This document shows, in pieces, positions 11,401 through 56,159 of a stretch of 64,000 bases of DNA. The notes under the pieces are model-generated. The model searched no databases. It was not told where the DNA came from and worked only from the letters and a program-made list of their open reading frames with translations. The stretch lies in contig CM059427.1 in NCBI GenBank assembly GCA_030390025.1, positions 3,720,001-3,784,000 on the forward strand, in the 5' to 3' direction. This stretch comes from Squalus acanthias (Eukaryota). The number at the start of each line of letters is the position of its first letter. Position 1 is the stretch's first letter. The position numbers were made by a program, and so were the translations under genes.

Positions 11401-11583
11401 CTCCACGTTAGTTTTATCTTCCCCCTTGATTTTTGCCAGCTGCTTCTTTCCCCTGCCCCCACCTGGTCTTTGGGAAGGCTGAAAAATACATTACAAATAT
11501 TTGCAGCAGTTGCAATGGCTGAAACCATTTTTGACCCTCATATGTGGTCATTTACCTTTCAGTAGCCATGTCCAATTAAATAT

Positions 11584-12158
11584 AACCCTATAGCAGTCAA
11601 GGACATTCAGCCTCGGATCTGTGGGTTAGCGTTCTCCAAGGCGGCCTTCGAGACACACGACAACGCAAAATCATCGAGCAGAAACTGATAGCCAAGTTCC
11701 GCACCCATGAGGACGGCCTCAACCGGGATCTCGGTTTCATGTCACGCTACATGACGTAGAGTCATCCAGACTCGAGTCGTCGTTGGCTTGTTCACAGATG
11801 TGATTTCCAGTAAAAAAAGTAAAAAGTTTAAAGTTTATGGTTTTCCATACAGACTGCATTTGACACATTAGACCCCCTGTGACCCCACCTCATTGTCTTA
11901 GTTGTATCTTGCTATGTCTTTGATGTGGTGCCTTCCTGACTGACCTGATTGTCTCTCTGCCGAGGTGTGATAAAAGGCAGTCAGAAAGATTAACTGTAGT
12001 CGTCTGACATTGTACGCTGCACAGGCATTGTTCTCTATCTATATATGCTTTGCCGATTCGTATTCCTTCACTTCACCTGACGAAGGAGCAGCAGCTCCGA
12101 AAGCTTGTGATTTCAAATAAAACTGTTGGACTATAACCTGGTGTTGTGCGACTTCTCA
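11584..12158 (+). mobile_element. PLE 3' end (family A): GIY-YIG endonuclease C-terminus, 3' UTR and hammerhead
   Basis: 11592-11759 encodes SSQGHSASDLWVSVLQGGLRDTRQRKIIEQKLIAKFRTHEDGLNRDLGFMSRYMT*; TSD CAATTAAATAT at 11573-11583 and 12159-12169. Confidence 0.88.
12073..12110 (+). ncRNA. Minimal type I hammerhead ribozyme
   Basis: TCAC-CTGACGA-A-GGAGC-AGCA-GCTCC-GAAA-GCTT-GTGA: stem I TCAC/GTGA, stem II GGAGC/GCTCC, palindromic AAGCTT stem III, CUU cleavage triplet. Confidence 0.85.
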
Positions 12159-14274
12159 CAATTAAATATTGACTGCAGCCCTTTAAGGTCTGATGTTTAC
12201 CCACCCCCTCCTTGACAAGCTCCAAGCACCAGGTCCAATACAGACAGTGAGCTGACCATGCCTGGCTAATTAGGCCCAACCTCACCTTTAACGCTGCAAC
12301 CAGAAAATCAGCCCGACATTTTTTTTCCCACTTTGTTTACATTGCTTTCTCTATCTCACACTCCAGTGACCATTTGGAACAGTGTAGAAATTATCTCTTG
12401 CTTCTAACAGCTGGATCTAGCCTTTGAACGGCTCCCCTCCCCCACCGCATGTGTTCACTTAAACACAGCATTCTGATCCGATCTGGCACGCTCGCAAGTG
12501 ACGGCACTGACATCCATCATCAGTCACCTGCCGTAACAGTGAGTAAAGGTCAAAACACACTGCAGTCCTTTCTGTTGTGAGGCTGGTTACATCACTCTGG
12601 CATACAGCTCAAGAACTGCTTGTATCTGGCAAGAGAATTGGCAGCTTCAAGAGTGATAGCTGATGTGACTCCTCAGATGTTTCTGTGCACTGTAAACACC
12701 CACATCCATAAACCCTACCTGTTCTCTCTGACAGCTGGAGTGTTCTTTTTGGTTGCTTATTAGTTGCAGCTGTAGCTGGAAAGTGTGCAGACACTGGCCT
12801 CACTTACTTTCAAGTGTTCCCAGGGAGTTGAAGGACGTGATAAGCTGTTATGTGCAAAGTATGCATTAAACATCTTTCAAAGCACTCCAGATAAAATACC
12901 CTCATTAATCCCTTCAAATTGAGCAAGCAGATAAAATGTGCTAGGAATAAGCAGATAAAAGCAGTAAAGAATGACATAATTATACATTAAACTTTATATC
13001 CAGGAAACTTTATGATTATACTGTCCTTTTAGATAATTCAGACGAATTTTATGACAGAGCTATTATTATTTACTACTTTTCTATAATTTTAACAGTAAAA
13101 TGGCTGTCATAATGAAGTGATGGTTTTTCTTGATCACTCTGTAATAACAGGGCTTTGTGAATTACTGACACTTCCAGTATGTACGACAATGCAAGTCCAC
13201 AATTAGATTTCTGGATAGTTAATATACTGCTCATGGCATGCTGGTGAAAGCGGCTGAAGATCGAGTGATGTTGAGCAGCTAACTAGAAATAAAGCCAGCT
13301 CAGGCCCCTCCTTTTGCTGCTTTCGAGCCAATAATTTGGCGATAACTGGGAATGCTTTAAGCTGACTTGCTGTTCAACTATTTCTTTCCTCTCTCCGGCC
13401 TTTCCCAGATGGTCTGAGAGCTGAGATCAAGAGCTGACCCTATGAGGATTCATTAAGACAATTTTCTGTGCGTCTGCATGAAAATACACAAATATCAAAA
13501 GAAAGAAATACTTGCATTTATATAGCGCCTTGCACGACCACCAGACGTCCCAAAGCGCTTTACAGTCAATGAAGTAATATCCTGTATCATCAAGTCACTA
13601 ATTCTTTATATTGATACCTTAAAAGATAAATACCATAAATCATTACTGTTGGGGCACTCCAATGGTATAATAGGGTTAGAAGTAGGATGGGAGGAGGCTC
13701 ATGTGGAGCATAAACCCCAGCAGAGAGCGGTCGGGCCGAATGGTCTGCTTCTGTGCTGTAACATTCTATGTAATACATTCCTGTAGCAACAATGTGCAGC
13801 ATAGAGGAGCAAGTGGTGAGTTTGTCTTCACAACAACCGATACAGAGCGTTCCTGACCTCTACTGAGTAATCAGAGGTAGTACTAACCAAATGCAAAGAG
13901 CTTCTCCCGCAGGAATGAAGAAAGAATAGAGACAAGTTTGTTGTCATTCCCATCCCTCCACTGACAGGTCTGGTGCAGAGCATCTTCACGCGCCTTCAAG
14001 TAGGAGGTGGTATCTAGATGCTATAAAGAAAAAAAAATACTACCTTTACAATGTGAATGTGAGCTCCCCAATGGAACAGTTGGTAAAGGAGCTGGAGCAG
14101 TGTGGAACTGAGCCATTAAGACCAGGTTGGTCTGTGCTGGGTGAGCTGATTACAGCTGCGGCAATGATTGGGGTACTACGATTGACTTTAATGCCACTGT
14201 GCAAAGGAGAGGAAACCAATCAGGTAGGGTTCCCACTCCTGACAACCATCTAGTGACCCTGCTATGAAGTCTAA

Positions 14275-19585: not shown

Positions 19586-21556
19586 GGCCACGATTTTCAT
19601 CCTACCCCATCCCTACCTCAACAAGCGGGAGAGGGTCGTGGTAGGGGTTTAAAATATCAGGCTCGGACAACGCGACACCAACTCAACCCCATTCCCGCCT
19701 GTTTAAATTTTAAAATGCAGATATCAGGCCATGGACAAGGCTCTCGCAAAAGGCACCGCAACGTAAATTTAACCGTAAGCGAGGGGGAGGCACTACCAGT
19801 TGTATTCCCGACAGCTGACCTAAGGTGAGAACTGCCGGCACACCAAGGTAAGTGGCTCTTTTAGCACTCCTTGTCGGCCAGGAGGAGAAGGCGTGCTTTC
19901 TCCCAGGCTCCTCAAGGAAGCCCTCCCAATCGCAGCCTTCCCCCAGACCTCCTAAGCACCAGCCTCCTCCAGCCCCGATCTCCAGCCTCCCCTCAACCCC
20001 GATCTCCAAACTCCCCTCAACCCGATCTCCAAACTCCCCTCAACCCCGATCTCCAGCCTCCCCTAAATCCCGATCTCCAACCTAACCTCAACCCCGATCT
20101 CCAACCTCCTCAACCCCGATCTCCAACCTCCTCAACCCCGATCTCCAACCTCCTCAACCCCGATCTCCAACCTCCCCCCAACCGAATCTCCAACCTCCTC
20201 AACCCCAATCTCCAGCCTCCCCTCAACCCCGATCTCCAACCTCCTCAACCCCGATCTCCAACCTCCTCAACCCTGATCTCCAACCTCCTCAACCCCGATC
20301 TCCAACCTCCCCCCAACCGAATCTCCAACCTCCTCAACCCCGATCTCCAGCCTCCCCTCAACCCCGATCTCCAACCTCCTCAACCCTGATCTCCAAACTC
20401 CCCTCAACCCCGATCTCCAGCCTCCTCAACCCCGATCTCCAACCTCCTCAACCCCGATCTCCAACCTCCTCAACCCCGATCTCCAGCCTCCTCAACCCCG
20501 ATCTCCAACCCCCTCAACCCTGATCTCCAGCCTCCCCTCAACCCCGATCTCCAGCCTCCTCAACCCCGATCTCCAAACTCCCCTCAACCCCGATCTCCAA
20601 CCTCCTCAACCCCGTTCTCCAACCTCCACAACCCCGATCTCCAACCTCCCCCCAGCCCTCCTGCTACTGGCCACCCCACAGCCCTCGCGATCACCGACGG
20701 GCTGAGAGAGGCTGATGTTCAGGAGGGCTGGGGGGAGGCTGTGATCGGGAGGGCTGGGGGAGGCTGTGATCGGGAGGGCTGGGGGAGGCTGTGATCGGGA
20801 GGGCTGGGGGGAGGCTGTGATCGGGAGGGCTGGGGGGAGGTTGGTGATCGGGAGGGCTGGGGGGAGGCTGGTGATCGGGAGGGCTGGGGGAGGCTGTGAT
20901 CGGGAGGGCTGGGGGGAGGCTGTGATCGGGAGGGCTGGGGGAGGCTGTGATCGGGTGGGCTGGGGGGAGGTTGGTGATCGGGAGGGCTGGGGGGAGGCTG
21001 GTGATCGGGAGGGCTGGGGGAGGCTGTGATCGGGAGGGCTGGGGGAGGCTGTGATCGGGAGGGCTGGGGGGAGGCTGGTGATCGGGAGGGCTGGGGGGGA
21101 GGCTTTGATCGAGAGGGCTGGTGGAGGCTGCGAATGGGAGGGCTGGGGGTGGCTGGTAATCAGGATGGCTGGGGGGGAGGCCATAATCCATGAGGCTTCC
21201 TTGAGGGGCCTGAGGGTGGGGGGGCACTCCTGCTCCTCCTGATCCACAGGGAGTGCTAAAAGAGCCGGCAGCTCCCACCTAGGATAAACTGCCAGGAGTC
21301 CCACATGTTAGGCCTCCCTGTCACTTACAGTTAAAGTTAAGTCGTGGCGCCAATGATGCGACTATGGTATGTTAATTAGGTCCCTGCCTGCCTTTTGGGG
21401 AAGCCTCGTCCATGGCCTGATTTCTGCGCTTTAAAATTTAAAGGGGAGGGAATGGGGTCGGGTTGGGGTCGGGTTGCCCAATTCTGATATTTTAACGCCC
21501 CTCCCCCCTCACCCCGACCATGTCCTGCCCATCAGGGAGGGATTAAAATTGAGGCT
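19586..21556. mobile_element. Foldback-like non-autonomous DNA transposon with inverted internal C-rich and G-rich tandem arrays
   Basis: Ends GGCCACGATTTT / AAAATTGAGGCT; 19856-19925 is the inverted homolog of 21192-21267; arrays at 19970-20650 and 20720-21125. Confidence 0.65.
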
Positions 21557-23581: not shown

Positions 23582-24150
23582 CAGTTTAACAAGCTAAGTT
23601 TTAATTATATGTAGAGGAAGTTCAGATGTTCTGATCCATCAACTCAGAGGGAATGAATGCTTACATTCCTATTGCATGTTTTGCTCATGATCACTATCTA
23701 AGTTAGAATTTCAAAATGCAACCAATCCCTTTTCCCTGTCACGTCGATCACATCTTTTGTTTGTAGGTTTTCTAAACATCAATTTCTTATTTCTGGAAGG
23801 ACATGCATTATTCCGATAGTGAGAGACTCCCCATGGACTGACCAAATTCCTTATGCTGGAATTAAAGGTGCTATTAACATTGCCTTGCCTGTTTAATTAA
23901 GTTTCTACGGGATTCAGCTCCCACCCGCCAGCAATCCCTCCTGTGCGACTGCTTAACACTTGATCTCTGCTACAGATGGTCCCCTTCAGGCCTGTTAACC
24001 CATCACTTTGCTCTTTGTTGTTCATTTTTCAGACTTCCCCAGAGATTGTCAACTAAGATCATGAGGGAAGCCCCCTCCTCTCCTCTTTATAGCTCCTCGG
24101 AGTTGTACAATGACATATTACTGTGTTGTTCCCCTTCTTTGGTTTATAAA

Positions 24151-24538
24151 AATGAGAAGTCGCACAACACCAGGTTATAGTCCAACAGATTTATTTAAAA
24201 TTACAAGCTTTCAGAGCTGTCGCTCCTTCTTCAGGTAGAGTAGCTGTGAGAGAATCTCCCAGAATTCACAATATAAACACAGAAAAAATGTATTCAAATC
24301 TTTCCCTACATCAAAGACACACTAAGAGCATAGCCAAGACAATGAGATGTGTCCCAGGGGGTCCAACGTGTCAAAACACCTGCTGGCCGCATATCCTCTC
24401 CATTTGGGTTTGGTTCTTGTGTTAGTTTTTTTTTAAATCCTGGAAAGACCAGCCATGATGTCAAGTCACGTTCTGTATCGTGACATGAACCCGATATCGC
24501 GATTGAGGCCATCCTCATGAGTGCGGAACTCCACATCA
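24151..24538 (-). mobile_element. PLE family A insertion with short inverted 3' tip
   Basis: Minus strand FRTHEDGLNRDIGFMSRY plus hammerhead (24201-24238); + strand CTCCACATCA tip at the right end; TSD TTGGTTTATAAA at 24139-24150 and 24539-24550. Confidence 0.85.
24201..24238 (-). ncRNA. Minimal hammerhead ribozyme
   Basis: CTAC-CTGAAGA-A-GGAGC-GACA-GCTCT-GAAA-GCTT-GTAA; G-U pair at the base of stem II. Confidence 0.7.
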
Positions 24539-25117
24539 TTGGTTTATAAAGGCAGGGATCTTGTTTTATACCATTAGTGAATTTATTAGCCTTCTTTTGC
24601 AAAGTTTCTCACTATTGATTTATATCTCAGCCCTGTCTTGGTCTATAGTTAATATTTTTATCCCATTTCTGTACTTCTATTTAGTGCACTAGGTATTTTC
24701 ATTCAGAACTGCATTCTAATCTTCTTCTTTATGGATATTTTCTCTCATCTACTGTAGACTAGCCACCCCTGATTCTCAATTATTACAATATTAGGACTAT
24801 GGAAGGAAGGTCCTCATGATAGATGTGGTGCGTTTCTTTGACTATTATGTCTTTGACATCAGCATTTATTTCTAATCGAACCTCTCTACTTTCCATCTAT
24901 GCTTTCCAGAGTGCAACTCTACACTGAGATGTTAGTTGCAATCTGAAGTCTAGATCTCAGGGATTAGACCCCTTTCCATCATTTCGCCCCTATGTGTATC
25001 ATGCCTGTGTAATCTTATCCCTTGTTAATTCATGATCTCCAGGCTCCTACTTTTCTTTTCATGGTGAGGAATTGGAAATTTCTCATACTCAATCCTATGG
25101 GAATTTTTGAACTATCT

Positions 25118-25926
25118 AAAAGTGTGAGGTGATACATTTTGGTGGGAAGAATGAGGAGAGACAATACATGCTAAATGGTACAATTTTAAAAGGGGTGCAA
25201 GAAGGGAGATACCTGGGGGTGTTTATACGCAAATCTTTGAAGGTGGCAGGACAGGTTAACAAAGCAGTTAACAAAGCATATGGGATCCTGGGCTTTATAA
25301 ATAGAGGCAAAGAGTACAAAAGCCAGGAAGTTATTCTAAACCTGTATAAAACACTAGTTCGGCCCCAGCTGGAGTATTCTGTCCAATTCTGGGCAGCACA
25401 CATTAGGAAGGATGTGAAGGCTTTGGAGAGGGTACAGAAGAGATTTACTAGAATGGTTCCAGGGATGAGGGACTTCAGTTACGTGGAAAGACTGGAGAAG
25501 CTGGGGTTGTTCTCCTTAGAGCAGAGAAGGGTAAGAGATTTGATAGAGGTCTTTAAAATCATGGGGGGTTTAGACAGAGTAGATAGAGGGAAACTGTTTC
25601 CAATGGCTGAAGGGTCGATAACCAGAGGGCACAAATTGAAGGTGATTGGCAAAAGATCCAGAGGCGACATGAGGAAAAACTTCTTTACACAACGAGTGGT
25701 TAGGATTTGGAATGCACTGCCTGATAGGGTGGTGGACACAGATTCAATAGTAGCCTTCAAAAGGGAATTGGAGAAATACTTGAAGGAGAAAAAACTGCAA
25801 GGATATGGGGAAAGAGCCGAGGTGTGGGACTAACTGGATTGCTCTTCGAAAGAGCCGGCACAGACTTGACGTGCTGAATGGCCTCCTTATGTGCTGTACT
25901 ATTTTATATTTCTATGATTCTATGAT
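25118..25926 (+). mobile_element. CR1 (HER1-like) LINE 3' end with uninterrupted ORF2 C-terminus
   Basis: LYKTLVRPQLEYSVQFW..LERVQKRFTRM..RDLIEVFKIM..FFTQRVVRIWNALP; (TTCTATGA)n-like tail. Confidence 0.95.
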
Positions 25927-28254
25927 ACCTGACAGCATTCTCATCAATTAACTTCTTCTTTTAGGAATATATGGGTATCCATATTTTTGTCCCTTTGAGC
26001 ATGGTATTGATTTTAGTTAAATTCTTCCTCCATTTTATCATGGGTTGAGAGGTACATCTTGTTTCAGTCCACTTTACCTCCATTTTTCTTGGATCAGTGA
26101 TGTTTCCCTTGTTTGTCCACGCACCTTATTCCTTGGGTTGTCACTTGTGTTATGCATGACATCCTGTGAATTTGGATATCGTCATCCTCCTTCTCTACTG
26201 TTCCACTTACACACTTTTCTTTTTCTTGATATGTGGCCAACCTCTAACCCATCTGCACATTTAAAAATTATTTTTTCACCATAGAACTAACTGGGTGGAT
26301 TGATTTGAGTAAGTCCACCACTGTCACAATGGTCTGAGTTCACCATCCCTGCAGCCAACTCATTTGCGTGCTCCCTTGCTAACTCTTCTTGCCTGCACTG
26401 TAAAATGGCTTGTTATAAAATATGCAAAACTGAATAATCCAGTTTCTAAAGTAGACTGAGACTTTTAATTGTGAAAATCCCTTTCAAATGTGTGGGTGGG
26501 ACCCACTGGAGTGAAAGCAAGTGGATATATGGACAGTAGCGATTATAATTAAAGTTGCGTTAAACTTCAGTCTGGCCATGTCTAACCTTCAAATAAACCT
26601 TTTAAAAAAACAACCTTTTGCGAGTTGCATTGGAGGAATGAATTAAAATGGAACATCAAGCTCTCAAAGGAAATATTGTACTATCAAAACTAAAATGAAA
26701 AACTTAGGTACAAGTTTTGGTTTCGAGTGGACCCATCTGCCCTAGTTGAAGGACAGATTTCGCCTGGCAAATAAGAATCTCCCTTTGAGATTAGAAAGCA
26801 CCGATATTGTAGATGTAATTTTGAAATCACAACTCAAATGGACCTGGAACTCTAAACCAGCCAATTCCATAGCCAGATTTTCACTCACCAGCTGCCAGGA
26901 TGAGTAGGTATAGATATACAGTAGCTACCAATTTAGGAGGCAAGGATAAAGCCCCTTTTTCCTCAATAGTATTGTTTGTAATGTCACAACTATGTTACAT
27001 CACATGTTGGTAGTAGTGACAATGTCTTTGGTATTGTCACTGTATAAAGGCAGAGCGAGCTTAGTGTATAAATATTTATATAAATTTATTGTGTGCTGTA
27101 CAAATGTAGAGCTAAGGATGTGCATGGTCTAAAATGGCCTCTCAGCATGCCTAACTTCCAGAGGATGGCTTTTGTCTTCAACTTCCATCCAATTTTTTGT
27201 CTGTTTTTTAAGCCAGGAAGACATCATTTGAGAGGAGTGAACACCTACTTATAGATCATTCAACCTGGAAATGGAACCATCAGAGGAAACATTAATCCAT
27301 TAACTGCATTTCAGGCAGTTCAAAATCTAATGAACCATTTCAGCCAGCGATCACTAAGACTGAGGGAGAGAGGAAAACTGGAGCACAAAAGCATAGGAAC
27401 CAGGTGGTCCTGGGTGAAGTCGAACTGAAAGCAGGTATTATAGATTGCTGCTGAAGAGACTGGCTACATTCTCTGTTGTCAGGAACAGAGCATAGTTTTT
27501 TAAAGATCAGGCCATTTACTGCAGTCATTGTACATAAGCTAGTGCTGTTTGTATGGTGTTTAATTTCTGTAAATAAATCTACATAATTAATGTGGAATCA
27601 GAGCCCAGCTCGAATGTGGTGTGTTGACACTGCTATCTTCCAGAATGGTTTAGAGAGGAATAAAGTGCAGTAAGTGTTAGCAATCTACGATTGTGTGAGT
27701 CTTAAATGGTGTGAGGTCTCTGCAGGAGCAGTAAACTGTAAGCTGACACTTCTGGTTCATACAGGATCTGAGGTCTACTTACAGGAAGTACATTGCAAGA
27801 AGGAATTGCTCTTTTCAATAACCTGAAATTACATCAAACTAATGGCAGCAGGTTTTGAGAGATGTCTGTGCAGTCAACTACGCTTTTACATACCATTTTC
27901 AGTCTGTAATGGCTTTGAGTAGTGTATACTTTATGGTGTATATGTATATTTGAGGTTACTTTTTGACCAAGATCCACTGACAGTCATTGAACAGTAGCTA
28001 TATACTCTGATTCCTACTTCTTCTCAAACTCTCTTCTACCCCATTTTCTAAAGGGTTTTTCTGCTTGTTTATGTTACATGTGCTCTGTACAGATTAGTAA
28101 AGATTGCTTATCATCAGTACAGTTGTAGTCCTTATCTCACCTGGACCTCATATGGATCTTGGATCTGTGCCTCTGTCAGAATGTCCAGCAGTTAAAATGC
28201 TTGACCCATCTCATGTGCTCATAATTGCTTCTTCTAATTGCTAAGTAGAGCATC

Positions 28255-30350
28255 TGGAGCTCAATTGTCCTTCTAATTACAGCCCGTTTTCGGGCAGTTT
28301 TGGGATGCTAAAAAGAGTCAAATGGAGTGGTAAGATACACTGCCTCAAATCCGCCCCAAAAATTGCACCATAATTCTCCTTAAAAAAAGGAATTCCTCTT
28401 TAACACCCGCTTGGAGCCTACTTTGACACATTTAAATGGGATTGGTTGGGTGTGGTTAATATTTCCACTTCATTTCTCTAACTTCTGCTCCAAATCTGAC
28501 ACAAGTTGAAACCACCACTATATGAGTGGTAACCCTGAGCTGGATACTACATTAAGGAACCCATTTTGTTCGCTGGAGCTGATGGTTTGTGTGACTTTGC
28601 CTGCATATTGAATTTAGCTTTTTGCTGCTCTGGAGGTTCTATTAACATTTTTCCTGGCATATTTAGTCAGCACCATAGAAAGTATAGGTTCCGACTGGAG
28701 ACATGTTTTCCCAATGGGAATTGCTCTAATTCTATGTTTTGAAGAGGCAGATGATGACAATATGGAAGAGTCTAAGTTGGAGGTATTAAGAGTGAGACAT
28801 CACAGAACATATTTGGTTCCGATATATGGATACCCACTCCACACGACTTACTGACCTAGAAGGACTTACTTAGATTTCTCTGGACGTCACCACTTTAGAA
28901 GGATTTGCTTCCCCTCCTTTCCCTCGAGGCAATTAGGGAGATATGTCAGCTGCTTACTGAAGACCTACAGCCCACTTTTCCTAAGAGAACAGCATTGTCT
29001 GTACTTGTCAAAGTCATTGCTGCTTTGAATTTCTTTCTAATTGGATTCTTCCAGGCACCCTGCCACCCTCACAAAGTCCTTCACTTTCAAAGACTTCTGC
29101 CTATTTCCTACATAAGATAGAAGTTCAAATTTTACACACCTTGATCCAACTCCAAAAAGTTGCAAGCATGCACAGAAATCGACTCTGAGGTCTATGTGGT
29201 CAAGTTATGTTTACTTTCCGGCACAACATTCACCAAAAGATGGCAACATTCTATAGATAACTGGTTCTAACTGCTGTGTCTACCCTTTGTGCCAGCTACC
29301 TTAATTGCTGTAGCTCCTAATCTACTACTTCTATGAGATACTCCTTGGGTGAGATGAGGTACAGCGATGGTTGGCTGGGCAAGTGCCCCTGGAGCCTTAG
29401 ATCCCTGAGGGGACTTTCATTTCAGGGAAGCAGCTGTCCCAAAGGGGCCAGCATCCAAAGCCTTTCTCTTGCAGTGTTAAGGATTGCCAAGCCCCTGTCT
29501 GAACCTCCCTCATGTGCAGGCTTTGGAGCTGGCTTTGAGGAATTAGGCTTACTGCCAATCATTGGAGAGACAGCAGCATCTGTGATTACTCTTTGCAGCT
29601 TGCTAGTGCAGGGCACAAACTCTGATGTGCTATTGGTCAGTCTGATGGCAAATCTAATAGTCCCAATCCAGGTCTGGAAGCCCTGTGAACTGGTGCTGTT
29701 CAGACTAACCCTCAAGGCATGTATTGAAGCAATGGTAACTGCCACTCCCAAAGCCACCAATGTCTTTAATGCACTTTGCTGTTGCAGAAACCTCATGAAC
29801 TGTCACTAGGGTTTTTCTGCATAGCGTGAGAAATTTCCTGCAAAGTGTTGCAGATGCTTGTAATGAATCCTCCCGCTTCTTCGTCATCTCAACCATATGC
29901 ATGGAAACCCTTTCCACTGTCTGCACAGGAGATCAATACTCCCTTAGCACTGTTCTTTTGAAGACTGGGCTCTGAGATCTGGGACTCCTTGGCTCCTTAG
30001 CTGAGGGCAGTTGTTTCTTCACTATATGTGGAGGAATGGTACTCTCCCTCTCTACCACTTCCAGGTCCTTACTAATTCTCAGTGCTTCACCTAGTGAAAA
30101 CCTTTCTGACTCTTTAAATATTTCCCCCTGAACGGGTGCCTCTGGACTGGTGCTGGAGTAGGTGAGAAGCCATGTCGGAGTTGATGAGGATGTGGCAGAA
30201 GTTCTGTATCTGGACAGGGCAGCAGTTATGGATCTGGAAGTCCCTGGGCGGTAATTTCAGTGGCTGGCCTCTTCCTCCAAGGCACTCCCTATGATGTCGA
30301 AAACAGAAAAGCTTATTTAGCTGTGCCACTGTGATATTTAGTTGAAGAAA
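28255..30350. mobile_element. Decayed autonomous-type Harbinger (transposase N-terminus on +, Myb-gene remnant on -); boundaries approximate
   Basis: 28905 ORF SLEAIREICQLLTEDLQP..RTALSVLVKVIAALNFFLIGFFQ matches the HARBI1-like transposase N-terminal region; minus-strand decayed ORF at 29400-30310. Confidence 0.65.
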
Positions 30351-30779
30351 TAGTGGCTAAGTGTAAGGGCACTGCAATACTTTCAGAAAACACATGAAGC
30401 TGACACTACCTGTCCCAGCCTTGCCCAGACTTTATCAACCTTCCCTTGCCACCTCACCTCCAACCTTACAATCTCTCACAGACTTTCCTGTCTGTCTACC
30501 TATTATCTGATGCTCCTTCAGACATCAAGAGCTATCCAGTTAGTTTCATTCTCCTGCCAATCCCCTGGTTCCTATTACATTTTTATTTTTCAAAGTATAT
30601 CCAATTCCCCTTTAAAAGCAATTATATATTATAGATTCTGAAAAAAAATCTTCAGCTCCAGTAGGACTCATTACTGTTTAAATGAAGGTCATGATGTGGA
30701 GATGCCGGCGTTGGACTGGGGTGGACAAAAATGAGAAGTCGCACAACACCAGGTTATAGTCCAACAGATTTATTTAATT

Positions 30780-30817
30780 TTACAAGCTTTCGGAGCTGTC
30801 GCTCCTTCCTCAGGTAA
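30780..30817 (-). ncRNA. Minimal hammerhead ribozyme
   Basis: TTAC-CTGAGGA-A-GGAGC-GACA-GCTCC-GAAA-GCTT-GTAA on the minus strand. Confidence 0.82.
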
Positions 30818-31366
30818 GTTAGCAGTGAGAGAATCTCCCAGAATTCACAATTTAAACACAGACAAAATCTATTCAAATATTTCCCTACATCAAAGACACA
30901 CTAAGAGCACAGCCAAGACAATGAGATGTGTCCCAGGGGGTCCAACGTGTCAAACCACCTGCTGGCTGCATATCCTGTCAATTTGTGTTAGTCTTTTTAA
31001 AAAAAAACACCTGGGAAGACCGGCCATGATGTCAAGTCACGTTCTGTATCGTGACATGAACCCGATATCGCGATTGAGGCCATCCTCATGAGTGCGGAAT
31101 CCGATATCAATCGCGATATCGGGTTCATGTCACGATACAGAACGTGACTTGACATCATGGCCGGTCTTCCCAGGTGTTTTTTTTTTAAAAGACTAACACA
31201 AATTGACAGGATATGCAGCCATCAGGTGGTTTGACACGTTGGACCCCCTGGGACACCTCTCATTGTCTTGGCTGTGCTCTTAGTGTGTCTTTGATGTAGG
31301 GAAATATTTGAATAGATTTTGTCTGTGTTTAAATTGTGAATTCTGGGAGATTCTCTCACTGCTAAC

Positions 31367-31404
31367 TTACCTGAGGAAGGAGCGACAGCTCCGAAAGCTT
31401 GTAA
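31367..31404 (+). ncRNA. Minimal hammerhead ribozyme
   Basis: Identical to 30780-30817 in the opposite orientation; stem I TTAC/GTAA. Confidence 0.82.
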
Positions 31405-31959
31405 AATTAAATAAATCTGTTGGACTATAACCTGGTGTTATGCGACTTCTCATTTTTGTTTAAATGAAGGTAGTCAATCCCCTGCAGGATCACATATCTT
31501 AGCACTGGCAAGGTCTGGGGCCTTTTCTGGTGCCTCTCAACAGGAGCAGCTCTCAGCTGGAGAAAGTTCCGCTGAGACCTTTTAACGGTGTAAAGAGCGG
31601 AATTCTTGGAGTAGCCGAGGAACCCCCGGGTTCCACCCACTTGATATAGGGGACAGATGGAAGAGCCGTCATCGGCTCTCTCAACAGAAAATGGCAGAAA
31701 GAAAAACACAGAGCAGAATCCCAGCAGAGCCAGGCACTCACCACATCTTCCGGACCCTTGTCAGGCAATCCTCCCAGGGTGCATCATCATTTGGAGCCCT
31801 CAGTTCTTTTTCAAATGAGCAGGTTTGCCTTACAACAGATGAGCGGCTTTCCTGAATACAGCAGGAAGGAAGGATTACTGGAGAGGCGTTCTACAGGTAA
31901 CTCCTGGAATGTGATCTAAATATCTTACCTTGCTGCTTTGGTAAGGTGGAAAGAGAAAC

Positions 31960-32711: not shown

Positions 32712-34046
32712 AAGAACCTTACAATGTCTGATAAATGATTTACCGGTTTTATGTGTGACACTCCTTCTAACGCATTTTTTATGAGTTTTTATATTCTTTA
32801 CTTAATGTATTCTCATGTTCTTATTCCTGGTTCACTGATGTTGGCAGCTATTTTAGGCAGCAAAGCCTTTTGGCATTGAAAGCCTTCTGCTAGGGCTTAA
32901 GTGTGTGTAACATAGGAACAGGAGTAGGCCATTCAGCCCCTCGAGCCTGAACGGGCTGTAACCTAGATACTCAAGTGAAGCATCAACAATTTTCAAGCGA
33001 TAAAATGAGTGATGCAGTGCGACAATGCAACAGTACCTTCTTGAATTATGTGAAATAATGTTTCAAGTTAAAATGTTATACCTAAAATCTTGATCTAATG
33101 TGTAGTTAAGATTAATGTGCATTATATAAAAGCCACATTTTAATCCCATCCATTTATATGAATAATGGAATCACGCAGCAGCAAGGATTGTGTGTGAAAA
33201 AGATGGAGAGTATATATAATAAATATATATAGATACACACACACACACATATATATATACATACCCGGACAGACAGGAAATGTGAGTGACATGGCTGAAT
33301 CAAGGATTGTAGCTATTACTTTTTCCGTTTTTCCTAGCCATTTTAAGATCACTAAAAATAAACCTAATTTGCCAGTGTGAAATATTACTTTATGTTGCTC
33401 TCTTCACTTTAAAATGGCTCAAGAAGAAAAGGATTAAGAGCACTCTATTATTCCTTTCTTGCTCTAAAATCATTCAAATGAACCCAATCGTAGACATAAT
33501 GGCCTGGGTTTTATGCTGCTCTCTGCCGAGGGCGGAGTGGGGGGCATAAATCCACATGGGGACACGCTCCGCTAACACCAGGCCTTTTTATGTATCCCTC
33601 CTGCTTTACGCCGGCAGTTACGCCGGGAGCCCGGAGCACCTGCCCAGTGTGTCCAGCAACAGCCCGCAACTGTTGCGGCAGTTTGATGTCACACATCACA
33701 ACTTTTTCCCAGATGCCACTCTGACGGCCTGAATGAAACAGGCTTCCCCCCTTATCAAGATGCACTGAGTAAAGGGAGAAGTGGTGTCGTTGTTAACTAA
33801 AGCCACAACCAGAGTGCTGTCATTCGGAACTTTACAACTCTTTCTTAAATGCTTTTTCTTTCACACTCTTTTTCTGGGAAGTCAATCCGTCAGCCAAGGA
33901 GAAGGCTCCGCAGTGAGTTTATCCCAAACAGCTCCTCTCCCTCCTCACAAACCACTGCAGCGCCTGCAAGGCGATCGCTTTCCCCAAAGGGATTCTCCTA
34001 TTCCTGGCTGCAATGGAAGATGAAGAGAGTAAACAACAGAAAGAAA

Positions 34047-34210
34047 TGATGTGGAGATGCCGGTGTTGGACTGGGGTGGACAAATGTGAGAAGTCGCACA
34101 ACACCGGGTTATAGTCCAACAGCTTTATCGTCAGGTCAGACTTCACCTGATGAAGGAGCAGCGCTCCGAAAGCTTGTGATTTCAAATAGAGCTGTTGGAC
34201 TATAACCTGG
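34047..34210. mobile_element. PLE family A short inverted insertion
   Basis: Antisense 3' terminus followed by sense hammerhead segment; TSD AACAGAAAGAAA at 34035-34046 and 34211-34222. Confidence 0.88.
34143..34179 (+). ncRNA. Minimal hammerhead ribozyme
   Basis: TCAC-CTGATGA-A-GGAGC-AGC-GCTCC-GAAA-GCTT-GTGA. Confidence 0.85.
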
Positions 34211-37200
34211 AACAGAAAGAAAGGAGGAGAATGAAGCTTTACCAGAGAGTATGTTCCCCTCCTTGCTGTACTCAGCTACAAGAAAGTAACAATACCATCA
34301 GAGTTTCAGAAACCTTACCCAGGAGCAGTGTGTCAAGAAGCTTTGCTTTACCCAAGGAAGCAATCCAGGAACATTGTGATACGTTGCGCTTGAACCTCAG
34401 CCCCACTTCCTGAACTCCCAACTACCTTCCCTGTGGCGGTAAAGGAAACATTCGCCATCATTTTTATTGCCTCGGGTTTATTCCAGGCTGGCAACAGAGA
34501 CGCTAGTAATGAGAACACACACTCTGTAGCAGCTAGCCAGAAAACCCGACTCATGCCTCTGGGTGGGAAATTGACGTACGATATATCAAACTACCACTCG
34601 CTACACTACCAATCACTGTTCACCAACATGGTGCATCCCGTTCATGCCTCTATGCGTTCCTCTAAATGCTCCTAACCTCCTGTCTCTTGTTGGTTCCCCA
34701 CTAAGCTTCCCTCGTGCTTGGAGATGGTAAGGTGGTTGGTTGCCCAGCAATATCATGTACCTCTTGGTCCTGGAGCGGCCTTCCTCTCATGTTGCCTATG
34801 TCCTACAATTGACCAGTATGGTATCTGTAACTGCAGACCTTCGATGTGGGCAGCTTGACCCTGCCACGTGTATGTCCCCTATGAATGACTCGGTGGTGAC
34901 TCATCAGATGTGTTGCTTGCTATACTGTCCTGAGTGACATTATGATCAACCAATCAGCTCCCTGCCAATTCACTGGCTCATGGCATTGCCTCTATGAGGC
35001 CAATGGACTGAGAGACTGTAGTCACAATGGTCCATGTAAGTTCAGTGAAGCCATGGCTAATGGCTCTCTTCATCCTGTTACCAACTTCCAATAGGGCTGT
35101 GGAGAAGCCTCGTCACCCAAGGTCTACATGACAGAATTAAGGCTTGCCACGCAGCATCCTACTCCTGACCCTTGAGCCTCTTGAATTGCAGTGTCCTCTG
35201 CAGGCATACTGGGAGCAGCCATTTGATCAAGGAATGCCTCCAGTACTCTGAATCAATCCATCATGGTTGGATCCATGTCAGCCGTGGACTCCTCCAACTG
35301 AGCTGACAAGTGCTGAACATGGTGGGAAACCAGCCTTGAAGCCTCCATATAGGTTTGATGCTCTGTGAGTATCTGTCTCTTGAAGGTCACGCCCGCAAGA
35401 TTTCGGTCCAACGGTTCCTGAGGGCTTCCATCGCTTCACCCTCTGGCCAGGAACTGCAATATAATTTTCTTCCTTGTCTCCCTCCTCCTGACAACTCAGT
35501 GTATCACCCAATGCTATTCCTTGCTGGAAACTATCTAGTGGCCCCTGAGTGCATGTCCCATGCTGTGCTTGGCCAGGAGAAAGTGCATGATGGCGGTGGA
35601 AGCTGGTAAACTTCCTCCACATCCTCTTCTTCTTCCTCTCCACTACTTTTTGCAACACCAGGTGGCACAGGGCAAGAAGAGGGAGGTAAAATGACAATGT
35701 GACATGCAGGCTTATCTATTGACTTGCACAATAGGCCTCAGCTTGATTGTGCTGTGAAATTTGCTTTTGAATTCTATATAAGCAGCACCAGGTGGAGAGT
35801 CTGGGAGTAATTTGACGAACTTTGAACTGGCACCTGCCCTCCCACTTCAGCACGCCTTCAGCCATGGGCCCTCCCAGGATTTCTATGGCCTCCTCTAAAG
35901 ACGCTGTAGGTTCACTTGCCCACTTCCAGTTGCCTTATTTTCCCTCAGGTAGTGGAACATCTTTTTTCCTGCAAGCGTAATGTAGGATATGTGACAAACA
36001 TAATGGTGTTTCATCCTACTTAGTGCTGGACATGCTGATCATTCAAGTGAGTGAGTAAGGATTTTTGTAATAAGTAACATGGCCACTTTCAAGTGGGAGC
36101 AGGCAGACAGGTCTGAAGGACAAATGGCATGTGCTGGGCTGTGGGTAAGGTGGTGGGGAAATTGGGAAAGTACTGAAGGCATTTCAAAAAGTTCTGAAGT
36201 GTCCAGTGGCTAAGTAGTGGGGAGCCTACACGCCTGGCAGCACAAATGTTTACGTTGAGCTTCAAGCGCCCACTCTTACATAACCCATCCTCTTCGGGCT
36301 TGTTGACCACAGGGTCTTGGATGAGACATTCAAAGTCTGTGACACCTCCCTCCAACATGCTGCCACTACCAATCTCAAGGAACTTCTTTACCTGTCCACA
36401 AAAAGGGTTTCCCGCCTCTTTCTGACTTCCTGAAGGATCACCTGTAGCTGCCCAACAGTGAACTTATTTGAGGGGCATCCCATTTGTACCTTTGAAGCCA
36501 TTCCTGAAAACCTTGCATTTCTCTCCTGCTCTTTTCCTTCTCTACAGGTTCCTCATTGAACTCTTATGCTGCACAGTCTGAACACAGCCACCTTCTTTTC
36601 TTTCTGTCTTGTTCCTCTTCCTCCAAATGCAGCCACAAACTCTCAGGAAACTCCACAGATCATCCCAGTCCCAGCGGGACTTTAAGTCCTGCTGCACTAC
36701 TATGACATCCACCTTCATAGTGCCCGTGCCCAATCTTGGGTGGATCTCCCATCAGAGGTCCACCCTTGCTCATGCAAATGAACTGACCCCGGAAAACACA
36801 GTGGGATCAGCGGCACACATGTTGGGCGGAAGCCACTGCATCGGCCTCAAGGAAATCCCAGGCTAGCGTGTATTTATGTAAACAGCATTCAACCTTGTAT
36901 CTACTACCTGCAGCACATCCTATTCAAACTAACACATGGGTCTCTGCTTGTGAAGGGGTTACGCCTAATAATATCATACAGCACTTAAATGGTCTGTTTT
37001 TAAATACTTTGACTACTTTAAGTCTGCAGTTTAGTTTCTTCTCTACCCAATATGCTTTTATGTTGATTTTTAAGTAAATGTAAAGAAATTTAAAGTGGCA
37101 ATGATGGAATATAAAAATTCTCGCCACGATACACATTTTGGCTGAGGCCACCTTCCATGACTCTGTTACCAAGCCTTAGGTTTAATTTGGTGAGTTATTT

Positions 37201-41603: not shown

Positions 41604-42005
41604 GCCAATCAAGTTGTGCCTACAAGTCATTCAAAATGTCTGTCAAATGATGTTTGAGGGCCCTGCAACGAGTTCTCTGTTATACAAACGCATGGGGAGT
41701 AATTCCAAGGAACTGGCACATCAGCTGCTTTTGAATCAACCCTTACGGACATGTCCGTTTTATTTACACGCTTTCTGCACGCGGTGCACCTTGAAGAATA
41801 CATGTCGGTGGCGAGTGAGGTAAATAACGATGCAGGCGGGCTTGGCAAACTCCTTTGAAGTGGCAATGAGTGCTGTTTATTTGACTGACTCCGGGTTTGG
41901 GGGGGGGGGGGGGGCGCCCTCTTTTGTTTCCGAATAACTTGCAGCAACCGCGCCCGCTGCTCGCCGCCTCGCCTCGCCCCACAGCCGAGTGCAGAGGCTG
42001 CGCAG

Positions 42006-42407
42006 TGCGGCGCCTCGTGGCCCGTCACCCCAGCCAGCGCCCAGCCCGGAGCGCGTGCGGCGCCTCCTGGCCCGTCACCCCAGCCAGCGCCCAGCCCGGA
42101 GCGCGTGCGGCGCCTCGGGCCCGTCACCCCAGCCAGCGCCCAGCCCGGAGCGCGTGCGGCGCCTCGGGCCCGTCACCCCAGCCAGCGCCCAGCCCGGAGC
42201 GCGTGCGGCGCCTCGGGCCCGTCACCCCAGCCAGCGCCCAGCCCGGAGCGCGTGCGGCGCCTCGGGCCCGTCACCCCAGCCAGCGCCCAGCCCGGAGCGC
42301 GTGCGGCGCCTCGGGCCCGTCACCCCAGCCAGCGCCCAGCCCGGAGCGCGTGTGGCGCCTCGGGCCCGTCACCCCAGCCAGCGCCCAGCCCGGAGCGCGT
42401 GCGGCGG
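42006..42407. repeat. 49-bp GC/CpG-rich minisatellite (~8 units)
   Basis: Unit TGCGGCGCCTCGGGCCCGTCACCCCAGCCAGCGCCCAGCCCGGAGCGCG; first two units are 50 bp. Confidence 0.95.
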
Positions 42408-44300: not shown

Positions 44301-44314
44301 TTTGGTTCTTTTGT

Positions 44315-44462
44315 GAGAAGTCGCACAACACCAGGTTATAGTCCAACAGCTTTATTTGAAATCACAAGCTTTCGGAGCGCGGCTCCTCCGTCAGGTGAAG
44401 TCACCTTGTGATTTCAAATAAAGCTGTTGGACTATAACCTGGTGTTGTGCGACTTCTCACAT
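44315..44462. mobile_element. PLE family A short inverted insertion (56-bp arms, hammerhead core in the loop on the minus strand)
   Basis: Arms 44313-44368 and 44405-44460; TSD TTTGGTTCTTTTGT at 44301-44314 and 44463-44476; hammerhead 44362-44398 has the core variant CTGACGG. Confidence 0.88.
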
Positions 44463-45297
44463 TTTGGTTCTTTTGTTAATAATCTTAAATTGTCTTGTCT
44501 TTTACTTACTGCCTCGCCCCCCGAGAAAATAGTTCCCTCTGTTTATGTTACCAAAACCGCTCCCATAGATAGATAGAAACAAAACGCATTAACAAGTACC
44601 AATAAATTGTGTAGTTCTATTTTAAGAAAAAGTGACCTGGTCCGCTGTAAAGGTATTTCGTTCCACTGAAGCATCGCCCGAGTCACCGAGCTAAAGGTGA
44701 AACTGGTCCCCAGTCCGGCTGACACTCACACTTCTCTCAGGATATGTGTCATTGTATAAGAAAAAAGACCGAAAGTCCCCGTTTTGCTTTTAACGGGACC
44801 AAAATAAAGGATTATTTAAAGCCAATCCATTATTAAAGCGTGTTCGGTACAGAAACGTGTCGATGAGAGAAGCAGAATGAGGCAGTTCGGGTTGGTCGGA
44901 ACAATGTTCTTACTCTGTGTTCTGTATAGGATTTAATTGGTGCTTAATTAACAAGAACCCCCCGAATGAATGAATTGTGCAAGTGCCGTTTACCACTAGT
45001 TTAGATCAGAATAAAGAATGCAGACATGGTCCGTCAGCATTAGGGATTCGTTCGGAGGACAGAATGGTAAAGCTGACTTGGCTGGTTTTGGGCGGGGCGG
45101 GGCGGGGGGGGGGGGTGGTTATGGTGGTGTCACACCTCTTGAGAGGAAGACTTCTTTGAAATCCGAAGGTGTCATTTGCCCATCTTTGAATCTGGTGTAA
45201 TTCACGTCCTGCGCCCTGTAGCCACCCCCCCCCCCCACCCCCGCCCATTACCTGAGCTATGCTTTCGCCAAGGTGATGCCACATGGAATTAGATCAA

Positions 45298-49970: not shown

Positions 49971-49989
49971 GATCCACTAGATGGTGCTC
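49971..49989 (+). promoter_or_regulatory. Candidate CTCF site
   Basis: GATCCACTAGATGGTGCTC closely fits the CTCF core CCAC[CT]AG[AG][GT]GGCGC. Confidence 0.55.
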
Positions 49990-52900: not shown

Positions 52901-53625
52901 TGGCCAAACTGTCACATCGAGCGACCTTTACTACTTTTTAAAAGGCGTGACGTTCAGATCCTTTTCTTAATTTTTCCTCGCTGTCTCTCTCCTATGAAAT
53001 ATCTGTTTTCAAAACTGGAGTCTGACAGGGACTGTCACCGAATGCTGGGGTCATGCTGCCTAAAACAAATCCAGCCCGAAGCGACGCACTCGCCTGGGTT
53101 CAAAATCGCCAGTGAGAGATACAGTTAAATGTAGGATAATAGCAAAGGAATAATCCTAGTGGTCTCTCAAACCGTCTTCCCTCAATTCAGTGAACTGCAT
53201 CTTCATTCGTGACAGTCTTACATGTGGAATAAATATATTTTATTTACACAATTGGCTCTTCCGATTTGGCTGTAGGTTGGAGCAGATTAATTTCTGAAAG
53301 ATTTGATCGTTTGGAGGGGGGAGAGGAGGGAGGGGGGGGGGGGGAAAGAAAAACACAATCCAGACAGATTACTGTTTTTTTTTACATATTTGCTTCAGAC
53401 AGTGGCAAATAAAACAGAGAACTGCTCACTCTGTCTGACTTAACACAGCCGAGTTGTAGGAAGAGCCGGCCGTGCTGGGGAGGGGTGAAGCTGCTCGGTG
53501 AAAAATGATCCAACTTTCTATTACAATCAGTTACATCTGCGGGCTTGTCAATTTCAGGGACTTTTTTTTCTGGATCCTCGAACTTCCGCCACTTAAAAAA
53601 AAAACCTTCTGTAATTAATTGTCGC

Positions 53626-53798
53626 CATGATGCGGAGATGCCGGTGTTGGACTGGGGTGGACAAAATTGAGAGGTCGCACAACACCAGGTTATAGTCCAA
53701 CAGTTTTATTTGAAATCACAAGCTTTCGGAACTAGTTCCGAAAGCTTGTGATTTCAAATAAAACTGTTGGACTATAACCTGGTGTTGTGCGACCTCTC
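53626..53798. mobile_element. PLE family A insertion forming a perfect 138-bp palindrome
   Basis: 53665-53802 is self-complementary about ACT|AGT; TSD AATTAATTGTCGC at 53613-53625 and 53799-53811. Confidence 0.92.
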
Positions 53799-56159
53799 AA
53801 TTAATTGTCGCACCATGGAGTCAGCCGTCATATTTTATGCATCAAATAGTTAATAAATGATACCACACTGGAGATAAACACTCAGACTTCCACCGCCGCG
53901 TTATATAAAGAAAGATTGTGTGGAGGAAAATGCAAATCACTGCGAGCTTCAATTGGAAACTACTCAATATCCAACCAGTGTGTCGGCAGATGCCATCCGA
54001 TGGGCATTAAACTGCCGGTCTAAAAATAAAACCAATTATAATGCAATGAATATCGACCGAGACCGTATTGAACGCAAACACGCTTATCATTCTGGCGATA
54101 GATATTATCAGGCTATTGATGTGTGCTTTCTGAGGGCTTTACTCACTGACTCTTCGGCGTCTGCGGCCGGGTCACTTCACACAACTCTCCGGGACTGTTT
54201 GACATTTATTTCGGAAGATCCCTGGTTGCTTCCAAGTTTTATTTCTCTTCCTCGTCCTGCGATTGTTCCAGTCTATTCGTCTGTCCCGAAAGGTAATGTT
54301 TGCTCTTTCTGCTTCGTGTTCCCCCCCCCCCCACCCCATCCAAATCCCGATTGGCCCTACTTTATTTTATTTTCGAGGTGATGAGGGCGATTGACATGTG
54401 AATGGGTGGCCGGGGCAGGCCAGAGCAAGCAGGAATTTCGAGTTGTGCGATCCGGTTACGCTTTGCTGCTCGTGTATGGCACAGTGGCGCCACCGTACGG
54501 GCAGCTCTCCCACCTGAATTTAAGGAGGATTTGTGTCGAAGGGACTGGGGAGAAGGGAAGCATTATCATTAACCTTTTATTGTTTGAAAAATGCAACGGA
54601 ACAGTCTCAAAAAGAAAATAACAATCACTTGCAAACATCTTTAATTTTGCTCCCGGGGAAGAAATATTATACTGCAATCTCTTAATAGACATTTTGCATC
54701 ATTACAGAAATGCAGCTACAGTATTCGAATTAGTGTTTGGAGATGAACCAAAGTTAATAGATAACACATTTTGTCGGGTTTCTTTCCGTATTCAGAGTCA
54801 TGGTGGTACAAAAGAATGTGGCTGGATGCTTGAGAAGCCGAGTGTTGTAGCTGGGTGCATGTTACTGTTCAGGGAGGCAGGAAATTTGGCTTGTGGGTTC
54901 AGAGACTGAGTTAAAATAACTGTATTGATTTTTCTTTGGCATCTAAAATGTTGGTAATTAGTCTGGGGTAAAATCAAGCTTAAAACCCGTGGTTAATTTT
55001 AAAGATAGATGTTTCATTTAACTCTTTAAGTCCTGACCAGCACTTTTTTTTAGTATTCAAATAAGGAGTTAAATAATGTGGAAATCAGAAATCGCCGCCG
55101 TGTACTTTTTAACTCGGCGTTTAATCGGTTTCATTCTGCACTTTGCTTCCTAAAATGGAGCAAATTGGTTTTTTACGGTTACGAGCCACCTTAAACAGAC
55201 AGCCTCTTTGACTGAGTCACCAGCACAAGCGAGTAACAAAATAATGCCAGCAAGTTTCTGTCATTTGGTCACAGCGAGTGTGCTAGCGTCGTGTCGCTAG
55301 ATGTGCTCAGTCCCAAATTGCATAATTCGTGATGCAGGGACCCTGGTAAATAAAGGTTCAGGAGAACAAAGATATTAAGAATTTTTTTTCTTTTCCCGGA
55401 GGTTCTCTGCATTGGGGTTAAGAGCAGCGGACTAGCTGGCTGGTGTCAAATTTGAGAACAGAACCAGAAAGCGAGAGCGAAAGAGAAATAAGAGTCTCTT
55501 CACTCCCACTTTCCCAGATACCGAGCTCCTCCGACGCGTTGCAAAGCCCAGAAACTCCCGGTGCGCTCCTCAGCCAGGCTAAAACCCTTCAGCACACACA
55601 CAGGACTTCTTGACATTTCCAGACATTCGGCTTTCATAGACAAAAGAAGCGGAAAGAGAGAGGGGCTGAGAAAAAAAGGAACTTGACTTTATTAAATATT
55701 CAACACAGGCTCTAGACAAATTTACGTTCACTCTCATAAATTATTAAAAGCCGAAAGCATCTGTCTATCAAGAATGCAGTTTATTATTAACTAATTTCAC
55801 ATGACAGTGCACTTGTTTTATTTATACAACGCCTCTTTGAAAAATAAAAAGCAGAGCAGTACTATAGCTTTTGATTGTCCATTAACGCCCGGGGGAGAAA
55901 CTGCGTGTGATAAACGCATCTTCCCTTTACATGAACTTCTGTGTGTGTATATAGTATAGTACGTTGGGTTTTGTAAGGAGCGTGCGCTCCTGTATATATA
56001 TACGTATCTCTGTGGGTCTGTATGGCTACATGTGTGAATTTGTATCCGTGTGACTGCACATGTGTATCTCAATCTGTGTATGTCTGCATGTGTGTATCTG
56101 CATCTGAGTGTGTTTGTCTATGTGTGTGTGTGTGTGCAATGTTTGCTGTATTGCGTGCA

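What the first reader, a model, noticed from the sequence alone, without database searches (positions are those of the whole stretch)
11573..53811. Six PLE insertions with 11-15 bp TSDs, five inverted with both 3' ends facing outward
Seen: insertions at 11584, 24151, 30690, 34047, 44315 and 53626 each have an AT-rich TSD (11, 12, 15, 12, 14, 13 bp). Four have one end at the element terminus (..CTCCACATCA[TG]). The opposite end usually stops ~35-40 nt inside, after GAC[TC]TCTCA, often with 2-4 nt shared with the target (TGT, GT, AATT, CA). Known: PLEs encode RT plus GIY-YIG, carry hammerheads, and often show inverted termini. Inference: both nicked target strands prime cDNA near the RNA 3' end (a twin-priming-like route, one terminal and one internal by microhomology), and the two cDNAs are then joined. 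That would make this family a routine generator of DNA palindromes. The regularity of the two priming points may be undescribed for this family.
Basis: partly seen in the sequence, partly recalled or inferred. Interest (0 to 1): 0.75.

Follow-up and report, generated by a model that had tools for sequence, protein, structure and literature searches.

The report
Two-ended Penelope retroelement insertions in shark
These are six real, short insertions of a Penelope-like jumping gene in a shark-like genome, five laid down head-to-head in a pattern already described for this class, and their ends suggest that both cut DNA strands likely start a copy, the inner start likely helped by 2-4 matching bases.

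Summary
Observation confirmed. Six 148-767 bp insertions carry exact 11-15 bp target duplications. In two related species, sites B and D are empty with one duplication copy; C is empty by indirect evidence. They are 3' ends of a Penelope-like element (94% to a shark RT + GIY-YIG protein with a Neptune/Nematis-type linker motif; minimal hammerhead motif). Ten of 11 element ends fall at two sites 35-43 nt apart. Most of this is published: inverted pseudo-LTRs, target duplications, a 30-40 nt 'tail' at one end, and two RT start sites with both strands nicked and extended in vitro (PMC11167929). This scan already noted the pattern in other shark genomes (e1-7858806, e1-7789271). Two small additions: six of seven inner ends share 2-4 nt with the target (P about 0.001-0.012; one family, n=7), whereas the in vitro paper calls its start non-homologous; and insertion B has non-overlapping arms (10 nt plus 380 nt) that fold-back cannot make, which favours two priming events. 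'One terminal, one internal' is not a rule (A and E break it). No genome-wide tally was possible. Known kind, modest mechanistic interest.

The parts
11573..11583 (.). A: left target duplication copy (11 bp); right copy 12159-12169
11584..12158 (+). A: single 5'-truncated sense arm, ends at the inner site 40-42 nt short of the terminus
11589..11753 (+). C-terminal 55 codons of the RT + GIY-YIG ORF, 93-94% identical to P0001 residues 589-643
12073..12110 (+). Minimal hammerhead motif in A (predicted; no Rfam hit)
24139..24150 (.). B: left duplication copy (12 bp); right copy 24539-24550; one copy in relatives
24151..24530 (-). B: long antisense arm, 3' end at the inner site pointing left
24529..24538 (+). 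B: 10-nt sense piece of the element terminus; 2 nt (CT) shared with the long arm at the junction
30675..30689 (.). C: left duplication copy (15 bp); right copy 31457-31471
30690..31099 (-). C: antisense arm with full tail; 7-nt filler 31100-31106 resembles a reverse copy of nearby arm sequence
31107..31456 (+). C: sense arm ending at the inner site; 349 of 353 nt complementary to the left arm
34035..34046 (.). D: left duplication copy (12 bp); right copy 34211-34222; one copy in relatives
34047..34136 (-). D: antisense arm with tail, with an internal jump to an 8-nt piece of the hammerhead core (34129-34136)
34137..34210 (+). D: sense arm with hammerhead motif (34143-34179), ending 59 nt short of the terminus, no shared bases
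44301..44314 (.). E: left duplication copy (14 bp); right copy 44463-44476
44315..44404 (-). E: antisense arm, inner end
44405..44462 (+). E: sense arm, inner end; starts 3 nt before the predicted ribozyme cut
53613..53625 (.). F: left duplication copy (13 bp); right copy 53799-53811
53626..53733 (-). F: antisense arm with full tail
53734..53798 (+). F: sense arm, inner end; perfect palindrome with no spacer at 53733/53734

Best explanation
These are six independent 5'-truncated insertions of an endonuclease-bearing Penelope-like retroelement, and the five inverted ones likely arise because both strands of a staggered 11-15 bp cut each prime a cDNA on element RNA from one source copy. Each priming likely starts at one of two fixed sites about 40 nt apart (terminal or inner, in any combination); the inner start likely uses 2-4 base pairs between the target's 3' end and the RNA; the two short cDNAs would then be joined head-to-head by host end-joining with 0-2 nt of microhomology or a short templated filler. 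Shown here: duplications, empty sites, end positions, shared bases, arm identity, junction sequences. Shown for another PLE in vitro (PMC11167929): both strands nicked and extended, two start sites. Inferred: order of events, dimer, pairing at the inner site, joining pathway.
For: Empty alleles with one duplication copy and no extra letters at B (24138 to 24539) and D (34034 to 34211) in runs X16 and X17, indirect at C. 10 of 11 ends in a 9-nt and a 3-nt window; P=0.0005 if uniform over 61 nt, windows chosen after seeing the data. B: the 10-nt terminal piece is absent from the long arm and from the empty allele, and contigs 24502-25147 of both samples of the window's species cross this junction, so neither arm can be a fold-back copy of the other. 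A (one arm) and E (two arms) end at the inner site, so inner starts occur without a terminal one. Shared bases 17 nt over 7 inner ends against 0.7-1.1 per end expected; P(sum)=0.0007 random sites, 0.0021 AT-rich, 0.0011 the other real target ends, 0.012 AT-rich sites starting ATT/TTT/AAT/TTA; terminal ends share 1,0,1,0. Arms within an insertion differ at 3 of 195 core positions, arms of different insertions at 6.4% with 0 of 41 pairs identical. PMC11167929 main text: top and bottom strand cut and extended, tail equals the stretch between two RT starts, dimer predicted.
Against: Only six insertions; no genome-wide tally (loose-end table swamped by other repeats). D-right ends at a third position with no shared base. 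Near-identical arms and F's spacer-less centre are also what fold-back copying gives. [quoted passage not shown] For A, B-left and E-right the element's continuation was taken from another copy (D or C), for two terminal ends (C, F) it is unknown. An endonuclease taste for T-rich sites raises chance matches (P rises to 0.012). Empty sites come from two species of one study, as contigs; A, E and F were not tested.
Confidence: 0.65

Rival explanations
1. Fold-back: one nick primes cDNA from the terminal site, the cDNA snaps back and copies itself, and the new end is joined to the other target end by microhomology.
For: Arms 349/353 (C), 57/57 (E), 73/73 (F) identical; F centre is a perfect palindrome; C centre has a filler like a local reverse copy. 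The 2-4 shared bases would be end-joining marks.
Against: Cannot make B (arms do not overlap). Does not explain why second ends fall at the same inner site as the single arm of A and both arms of E. May still act in part of the copies (F, D).
Confidence: 0.15
2. Published older views: palindromes arise by self-priming on an antisense template (PMC3846280, Discussion) and the tail by endonuclease resolution of an intermediate (PMC8557442, passages); the inner end is then a cut site, not a priming site.
For: Head-to-head arrangement and palindromic junctions are as described there; fixed inner ends suit a sequence-directed cut.
Against: PMC11167929 maps genomic inner ends to RT start sites in vitro; inner ends here vary over 9 nt and track target sequence; every inverted copy here has its own centre, with clean duplications.
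Confidence: 0.12
3. The shared 2-4 bases are a by-product of T/A-rich cut preference meeting a T/A-rich stretch of the element; priming is two-ended but needs no pairing.
For: PMC11167929: ATT preference and non-homologous start. With an ATT/TTT/AAT/TTA-start null the sum is reached in 1.2% of draws. An earlier scan note (e1-9979726) reports target hot spots for a PLE in this genome.
Against: Shuffling among the real target ends still gives P=0.0011; matches include C and G (CA, TGT, ACA) and the stop position shifts with the target.
Confidence: 0.25
4. Assembly artefact or later recombination between neighbouring copies.
For: Palindromes are hard to assemble; no single contig spans C, D or B whole.
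Against: Junction-crossing contigs in two samples for B and D, clean single-copy empty sites in relatives, exact duplications at all six.
Confidence: 0.03

Closest known systems
Canonical EN+ Penelope-like element insertions with inverted pseudo-LTR, target duplication and 30-40 nt tail (PMC3846280 passages and Discussion; PMC8557442 passages; 34-bp repeat in PMC2377424 passages)
   Same: Head-to-head inverted 5'-truncated arms, 8-15 bp duplications, tail at one end only, palindromic junctions, AT-rich targets, hammerhead motif in the terminal repeat.
   Different: Here both arms are stumps (10-410 nt) with no ORF between them; those papers leave the cause of inversion undefined or ascribe it to antisense self-priming.
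PAc (Poseidon, green anole) in vitro system, PMC11167929 (main text and methods read; supplementary figures unreadable as text)
   Same: Two RT start sites bounding the tail, downstream of a minimal hammerhead; both target strands cut and extended; AT-rich targets.
   Different: Different clade (the related ORF P0001 has the CX2-5CxxC linker that Penelope/Poseidon lack); that paper reports no homology at the start site and does not, in the text read, explain inversions.
L1 twin priming and dual priming (PMC2837659, passages)
   Same: B is a twin-priming product in form: short terminal arm, inverted upstream arm, deletion between, 2-nt junction microhomology, duplication. C-F match dual priming (both nicks prime near the 3' end).
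   Different: In L1 the inner primer lands anywhere and arms do not overlap; here it lands in a 9-nt window and arms usually overlap into palindromes.

Membership tests
Canonical EN+ Penelope-like elements | One ORF with RT and C-terminal GIY-YIG endonuclease | tested here: met
   Only the last 55 codons lie in the window; they are 94% identical to P0001 (RVT_1 at 183-309, DKG, YIDD, VY..YIG) and 83% to P0004 (Pfam GIY-YIG above cut-off). No full-length master was found in the window.
Canonical EN+ Penelope-like elements | [quoted passage not shown] | tested here: met
   P0001: C548, C552 between VY and YIG; H572, H588; feature from PMC8557442. Tested on the relative, not on a window ORF.
Canonical EN+ Penelope-like elements | Minimal hammerhead in the terminal repeat (extra base after position 9, G10.1-C11.1, palindromic helix III) | tested here: met
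   Core, 5-bp stem II, AGCU palindrome, 4-bp stem I with a compensatory change UCAC/GUGA to UUAC/GUAA between subfamilies; features from PMC4209133. Rfam gave no hammerhead hit; activity not testable.
Canonical EN+ Penelope-like elements | Inverted 5'-truncated copy, target duplication and optional 30-40 nt tail | tested here: met
   5 of 6 inverted, 6 of 6 duplications, tail 35-43 nt.
Canonical EN+ Penelope-like elements | Partial-tandem pseudo-LTR arrangement of active copies | not testable with these tools
   No genome held; no tandem copy in the window.
Neptune/Nematis clades | CX2-5CxxC linker upstream of the endonuclease | tested here: met
   P0001 residues 505-513, CX4CxxC; definition in PMC8557442.
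Neptune/Nematis clades | Placement in an RT phylogeny | not tested
   No named reference PLE proteins were fetched; no tree built.
Penelope/Poseidon clade | Absence of the CX2-5CxxC linker | tested here: not met
   Linker present in P0001.
Classical twin priming (L1) | Two non-overlapping inverted fragments of one RNA with an internal deletion, inside a duplication | tested here: inconclusive
   Met by B; not met by C, D, E, F, whose arms overlap.
Dual priming (proposed for L1) | Both nicks primed near the RNA 3' end by two RNA molecules | not testable with these tools
   Geometry of C-F fits; one versus two RNA molecules cannot be told from sequence; arms come from one source type.

The most novel reading that the evidence does not exclude
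Double-ended priming is the normal insertion route of this PLE family: a dimer primes both strands of the staggered cut from one source transcript, the inner start is chosen by 2-4 bp of target-RNA pairing inside a 9-nt window, and host end-joining fuses the cDNAs. This would solve the long-open origin of PLE inverted pseudo-LTRs and tails, correct the 'non-homologous start' statement, and make the family a mass source of short DNA palindromes in shark genomes.
Probability: 0.35. Interest if true: 0.6.

Novelty: new member of a known kind. Interest (0 to 1): 0.33.

Why it matters
The insertion pattern is known, but its cause is still called undefined in PMC8557442 and is left open in PMC11167929. 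Young shark copies with empty sites in relatives give clean junctions, and copies like B separate two-primer from fold-back models. The microhomology prediction is directly testable in the existing anole in vitro system and in any shark assembly. It also bears on repeat annotation: such stumps are easily misfiled as MITEs.

Tried and rejected
Pattern scans found no copies in metagenome, viral (31) or prokaryote (32) contigs. Rfam found no family at gathering score in the window and no hammerhead at E up to 10 in two small regions. Pfam on the 55-aa piece gave only a weak unrelated hit. RNA folds of the 3' end were not better than shuffles (z -0.3 to -1.3), so no structure is claimed for the start sites. 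Loose-end and joint tables were dominated by two LINE-type repeats (24 loose-end rows shown, 9857 not shown), so they gave no tally of element ends; summed contig depths over the element (1e5-1e6 against 10-25 in unique flanks) show abundance but are no copy number. The six target sites show no obvious shared motif by eye beyond A+T richness (no statistic). Supplementary figures S1-S2 of PMC11167929 gave labels and logo letters only; they may show target-RNA matches I could not see. A coincidence of 26 nt between an ATG in the hammerhead core and the cut was dropped: that frame stops after nine codons and A and C lack the ATG. bioRxiv 10.1101/2024.12.14.628481 (passages) added nothing specific. 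A MITE or DNA-transposon reading was rejected: arm lengths, centres and duplication lengths differ in every copy.
Full report
Observation. A repeat of 11 bp or more arose in 0.8% of 3000 random position pairs given the same slack. nhmmer with three element queries found these ten long arms and nothing else above chance in the window. The window is vertebrate, shark-like: the best named protein hits are all from sharks.

Empty sites. One laying of four runs on 23700-34700 covered three of the six sites. Runs X16 and X17 (two related species, one study; about 3.4% different in unique flanks) each have a 1171-nt contig that goes from 24138 straight to 24539, and a 1971-nt contig that goes from 34034 to 34211, with no letters between: B and D are absent and the duplicated word is single. 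For C the listed piece starts at 31457, the first base of the right copy including the shared TGT; its other 394-397 nt are not listed, but a variant row at 30510 with the same depths lies 165 nt from a piece end, which puts that end at 30674. I count this as indirect. In both samples of the window's own species (X3, X5) contigs 24502-25147 cross B's inversion junction and right duplication, and contigs from 34181/34189 cross D's right end, so these junctions are not assembly errors. A, E and F were not tested.

Identity. A holds the last 55 codons of an ORF, 94% identical to P0001, a 643-aa shark protein with an RT domain and a C-terminal endonuclease. P0001 has DKG, YIDD, the CCHH residues and a CX4CxxC linker, which by PMC8557442 (passages) marks Neptune or Nematis, not Penelope/Poseidon; no tree was built. 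The terminal repeat has a minimal hammerhead motif with a compensatory change in stem I between subfamilies, matching the features in PMC4209133 (passages); Rfam does not score it.

End positions. Eleven element 3' ends face the target. Four lie within 2 nt of the terminus (B-right, C-left, D-left, F-left), six lie 35-43 nt short of it, one (D-right) 59 nt short. Ten of 11 in a 9-nt plus a 3-nt window had P=0.0005 under a uniform null over 61 nt, with windows set after the fact. The terminus is 94 nt past the predicted ribozyme cut, the inner site 51-59 nt. Combinations are terminal+inner (B, C, F, loosely D), inner+inner (E) and inner alone (A).

Shared bases. The seven inner ends share 2, 3, 3, 0, 3, 2 and 4 nt with the first target bases; the four terminal ends 1, 0, 1, 0, two of these with the element's continuation unknown. 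With forward and backward ambiguity both counted, the sum of 17 was reached in 0.07% (random sites), 0.21% (AT-rich), 0.11% (other real target ends) and 1.2% (AT-rich sites starting ATT/TTT/AAT/TTA) of 40000 draws, D included. For C-right, E-left and F-right the reference is the copy's own other arm; for A, B-left and E-right it is another copy. The signal is real in this window but rests on seven ends.

Mechanism. B is the informative copy: a 380-nt antisense arm from the inner site, a 10-nt sense piece of the terminus, 2 nt shared at the junction, and neither arm contains the other. Fold-back cannot produce that; two priming events, one from each strand, can. C, D, E and F have overlapping arms that are near identical within a copy (3 of 195 core positions differ; C 4 of 353) while arms of different copies differ by 6.4%, none of 41 pairs identical. 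So both arms come from one source type: one RNA read twice, a tandem transcript, two RNAs of one locus, or, for these four taken alone, fold-back. Centres differ in every copy: no spacer (F), 36 nt of one arm (E), a 7-nt filler (C), a jump (D). I put two-strand priming with end-joining at 0.65, fold-back as the main route at 0.15, antisense self-priming or endonuclease resolution at 0.12; separately, about 0.25 that the shared bases are a by-product.

What is known. PMC3846280 (passages and Discussion) describes inverted pseudo-LTRs with 9-10 bp duplications, a 31-bp tail optionally on one of them, head-to-head order and palindromic junctions, and ascribes them to antisense self-priming. PMC8557442 (passages) gives the 30-40 bp tail at one end as a general PLE trait and calls the cause undefined. 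PMC2377424 (passages) gives the 34-37 bp repeat. PMC11167929 (parts 1-3 of 4: main text and methods) shows both strands cut and extended, two RT starts that bound the tail, a predicted dimer, and states that the start is not homologous to the cut DNA; its supplementary figures were unreadable. PMC2837659 (passages) defines twin and dual priming for L1. I did not find an explicit two-primer account of PLE inversions or a report of microhomology at the tail-less end: searches (2 papers listed; 2; 1; 4; 7; 0), judged from listings only. The library lacks subscription papers, among them the 2005-2006 PLE surveys that these papers cite, so absence is weak. Earlier notes of this scan (e1-7858806, e1-7789271) report the same pattern in other shark genomes; they are not independent support.

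Verdict. A real set of young insertions of a known kind of element in its known arrangement. The added value is one copy that discriminates between models and a small-sample microhomology signal that can be tested. New member of a known kind, interest 0.33.

Noticed in passing
window 24529-24530 and 31099: The long antisense arms of B and C, two separate insertions 92% alike, end 5' within 2 nt of each other, about 410 nt from the terminus, inside the last codons of the ORF; this hints at a fixed RNA 5' end or a short non-autonomous subfamily. Their UTR has zero depth in the two relatives at 24357 and 30936, so the subfamily looks lineage-specific.
   Followed up: partly
window 34137-34146 and 44396-44404: D's sense arm and E's antisense arm both begin within about 2 nt of the 5' strand of hammerhead stem I; E's sense arm begins 3 nt before the predicted cut and F's centre lies in stem II. 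Arm 5' ends cluster around the ribozyme motif.
   Followed up: no
window 34047-34095 (minus strand): The two start sites resemble each other (TCTCACAT at the inner site, TCTCCACAT at the terminus, about 40 nt apart), as a repeated binding motif for a dimer might.
   Followed up: no
joints 30811-31369 and 34102-34146: Two inverted junction forms not present in this window appear in both samples of the species at depth 207-241, about ten to twenty times unique depth, and not in the relatives: identical centres may recur or amplify as units.
   Followed up: no
window 11584-11591: About 5-8 nt at A's 5' junction do not obviously belong to the ORF frame match or the target; origin not found.
   Followed up: no
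window 1936-3930, 19959-21181, 42000-42406: Tandem arrays with 30, 22, 25 and 49 nt units; the 22-nt C-rich and 25-nt G-rich arrays abut and are partly complementary.
   Followed up: no
window 1-759 (-) and 25120-25830 (+): Open frames of 237-253 codons that look like LINE reverse-transcriptase fragments (family names not tested).
   Followed up: no
P0003, P0013, P0016, P0019, P0021: Several annotated shark protein isoforms (XRCC5, PPP1R12A-like, FAM210B, septin 5a, FAM204A) contain this element's endonuclease tail: exonisation or gene-model errors.
   Followed up: no
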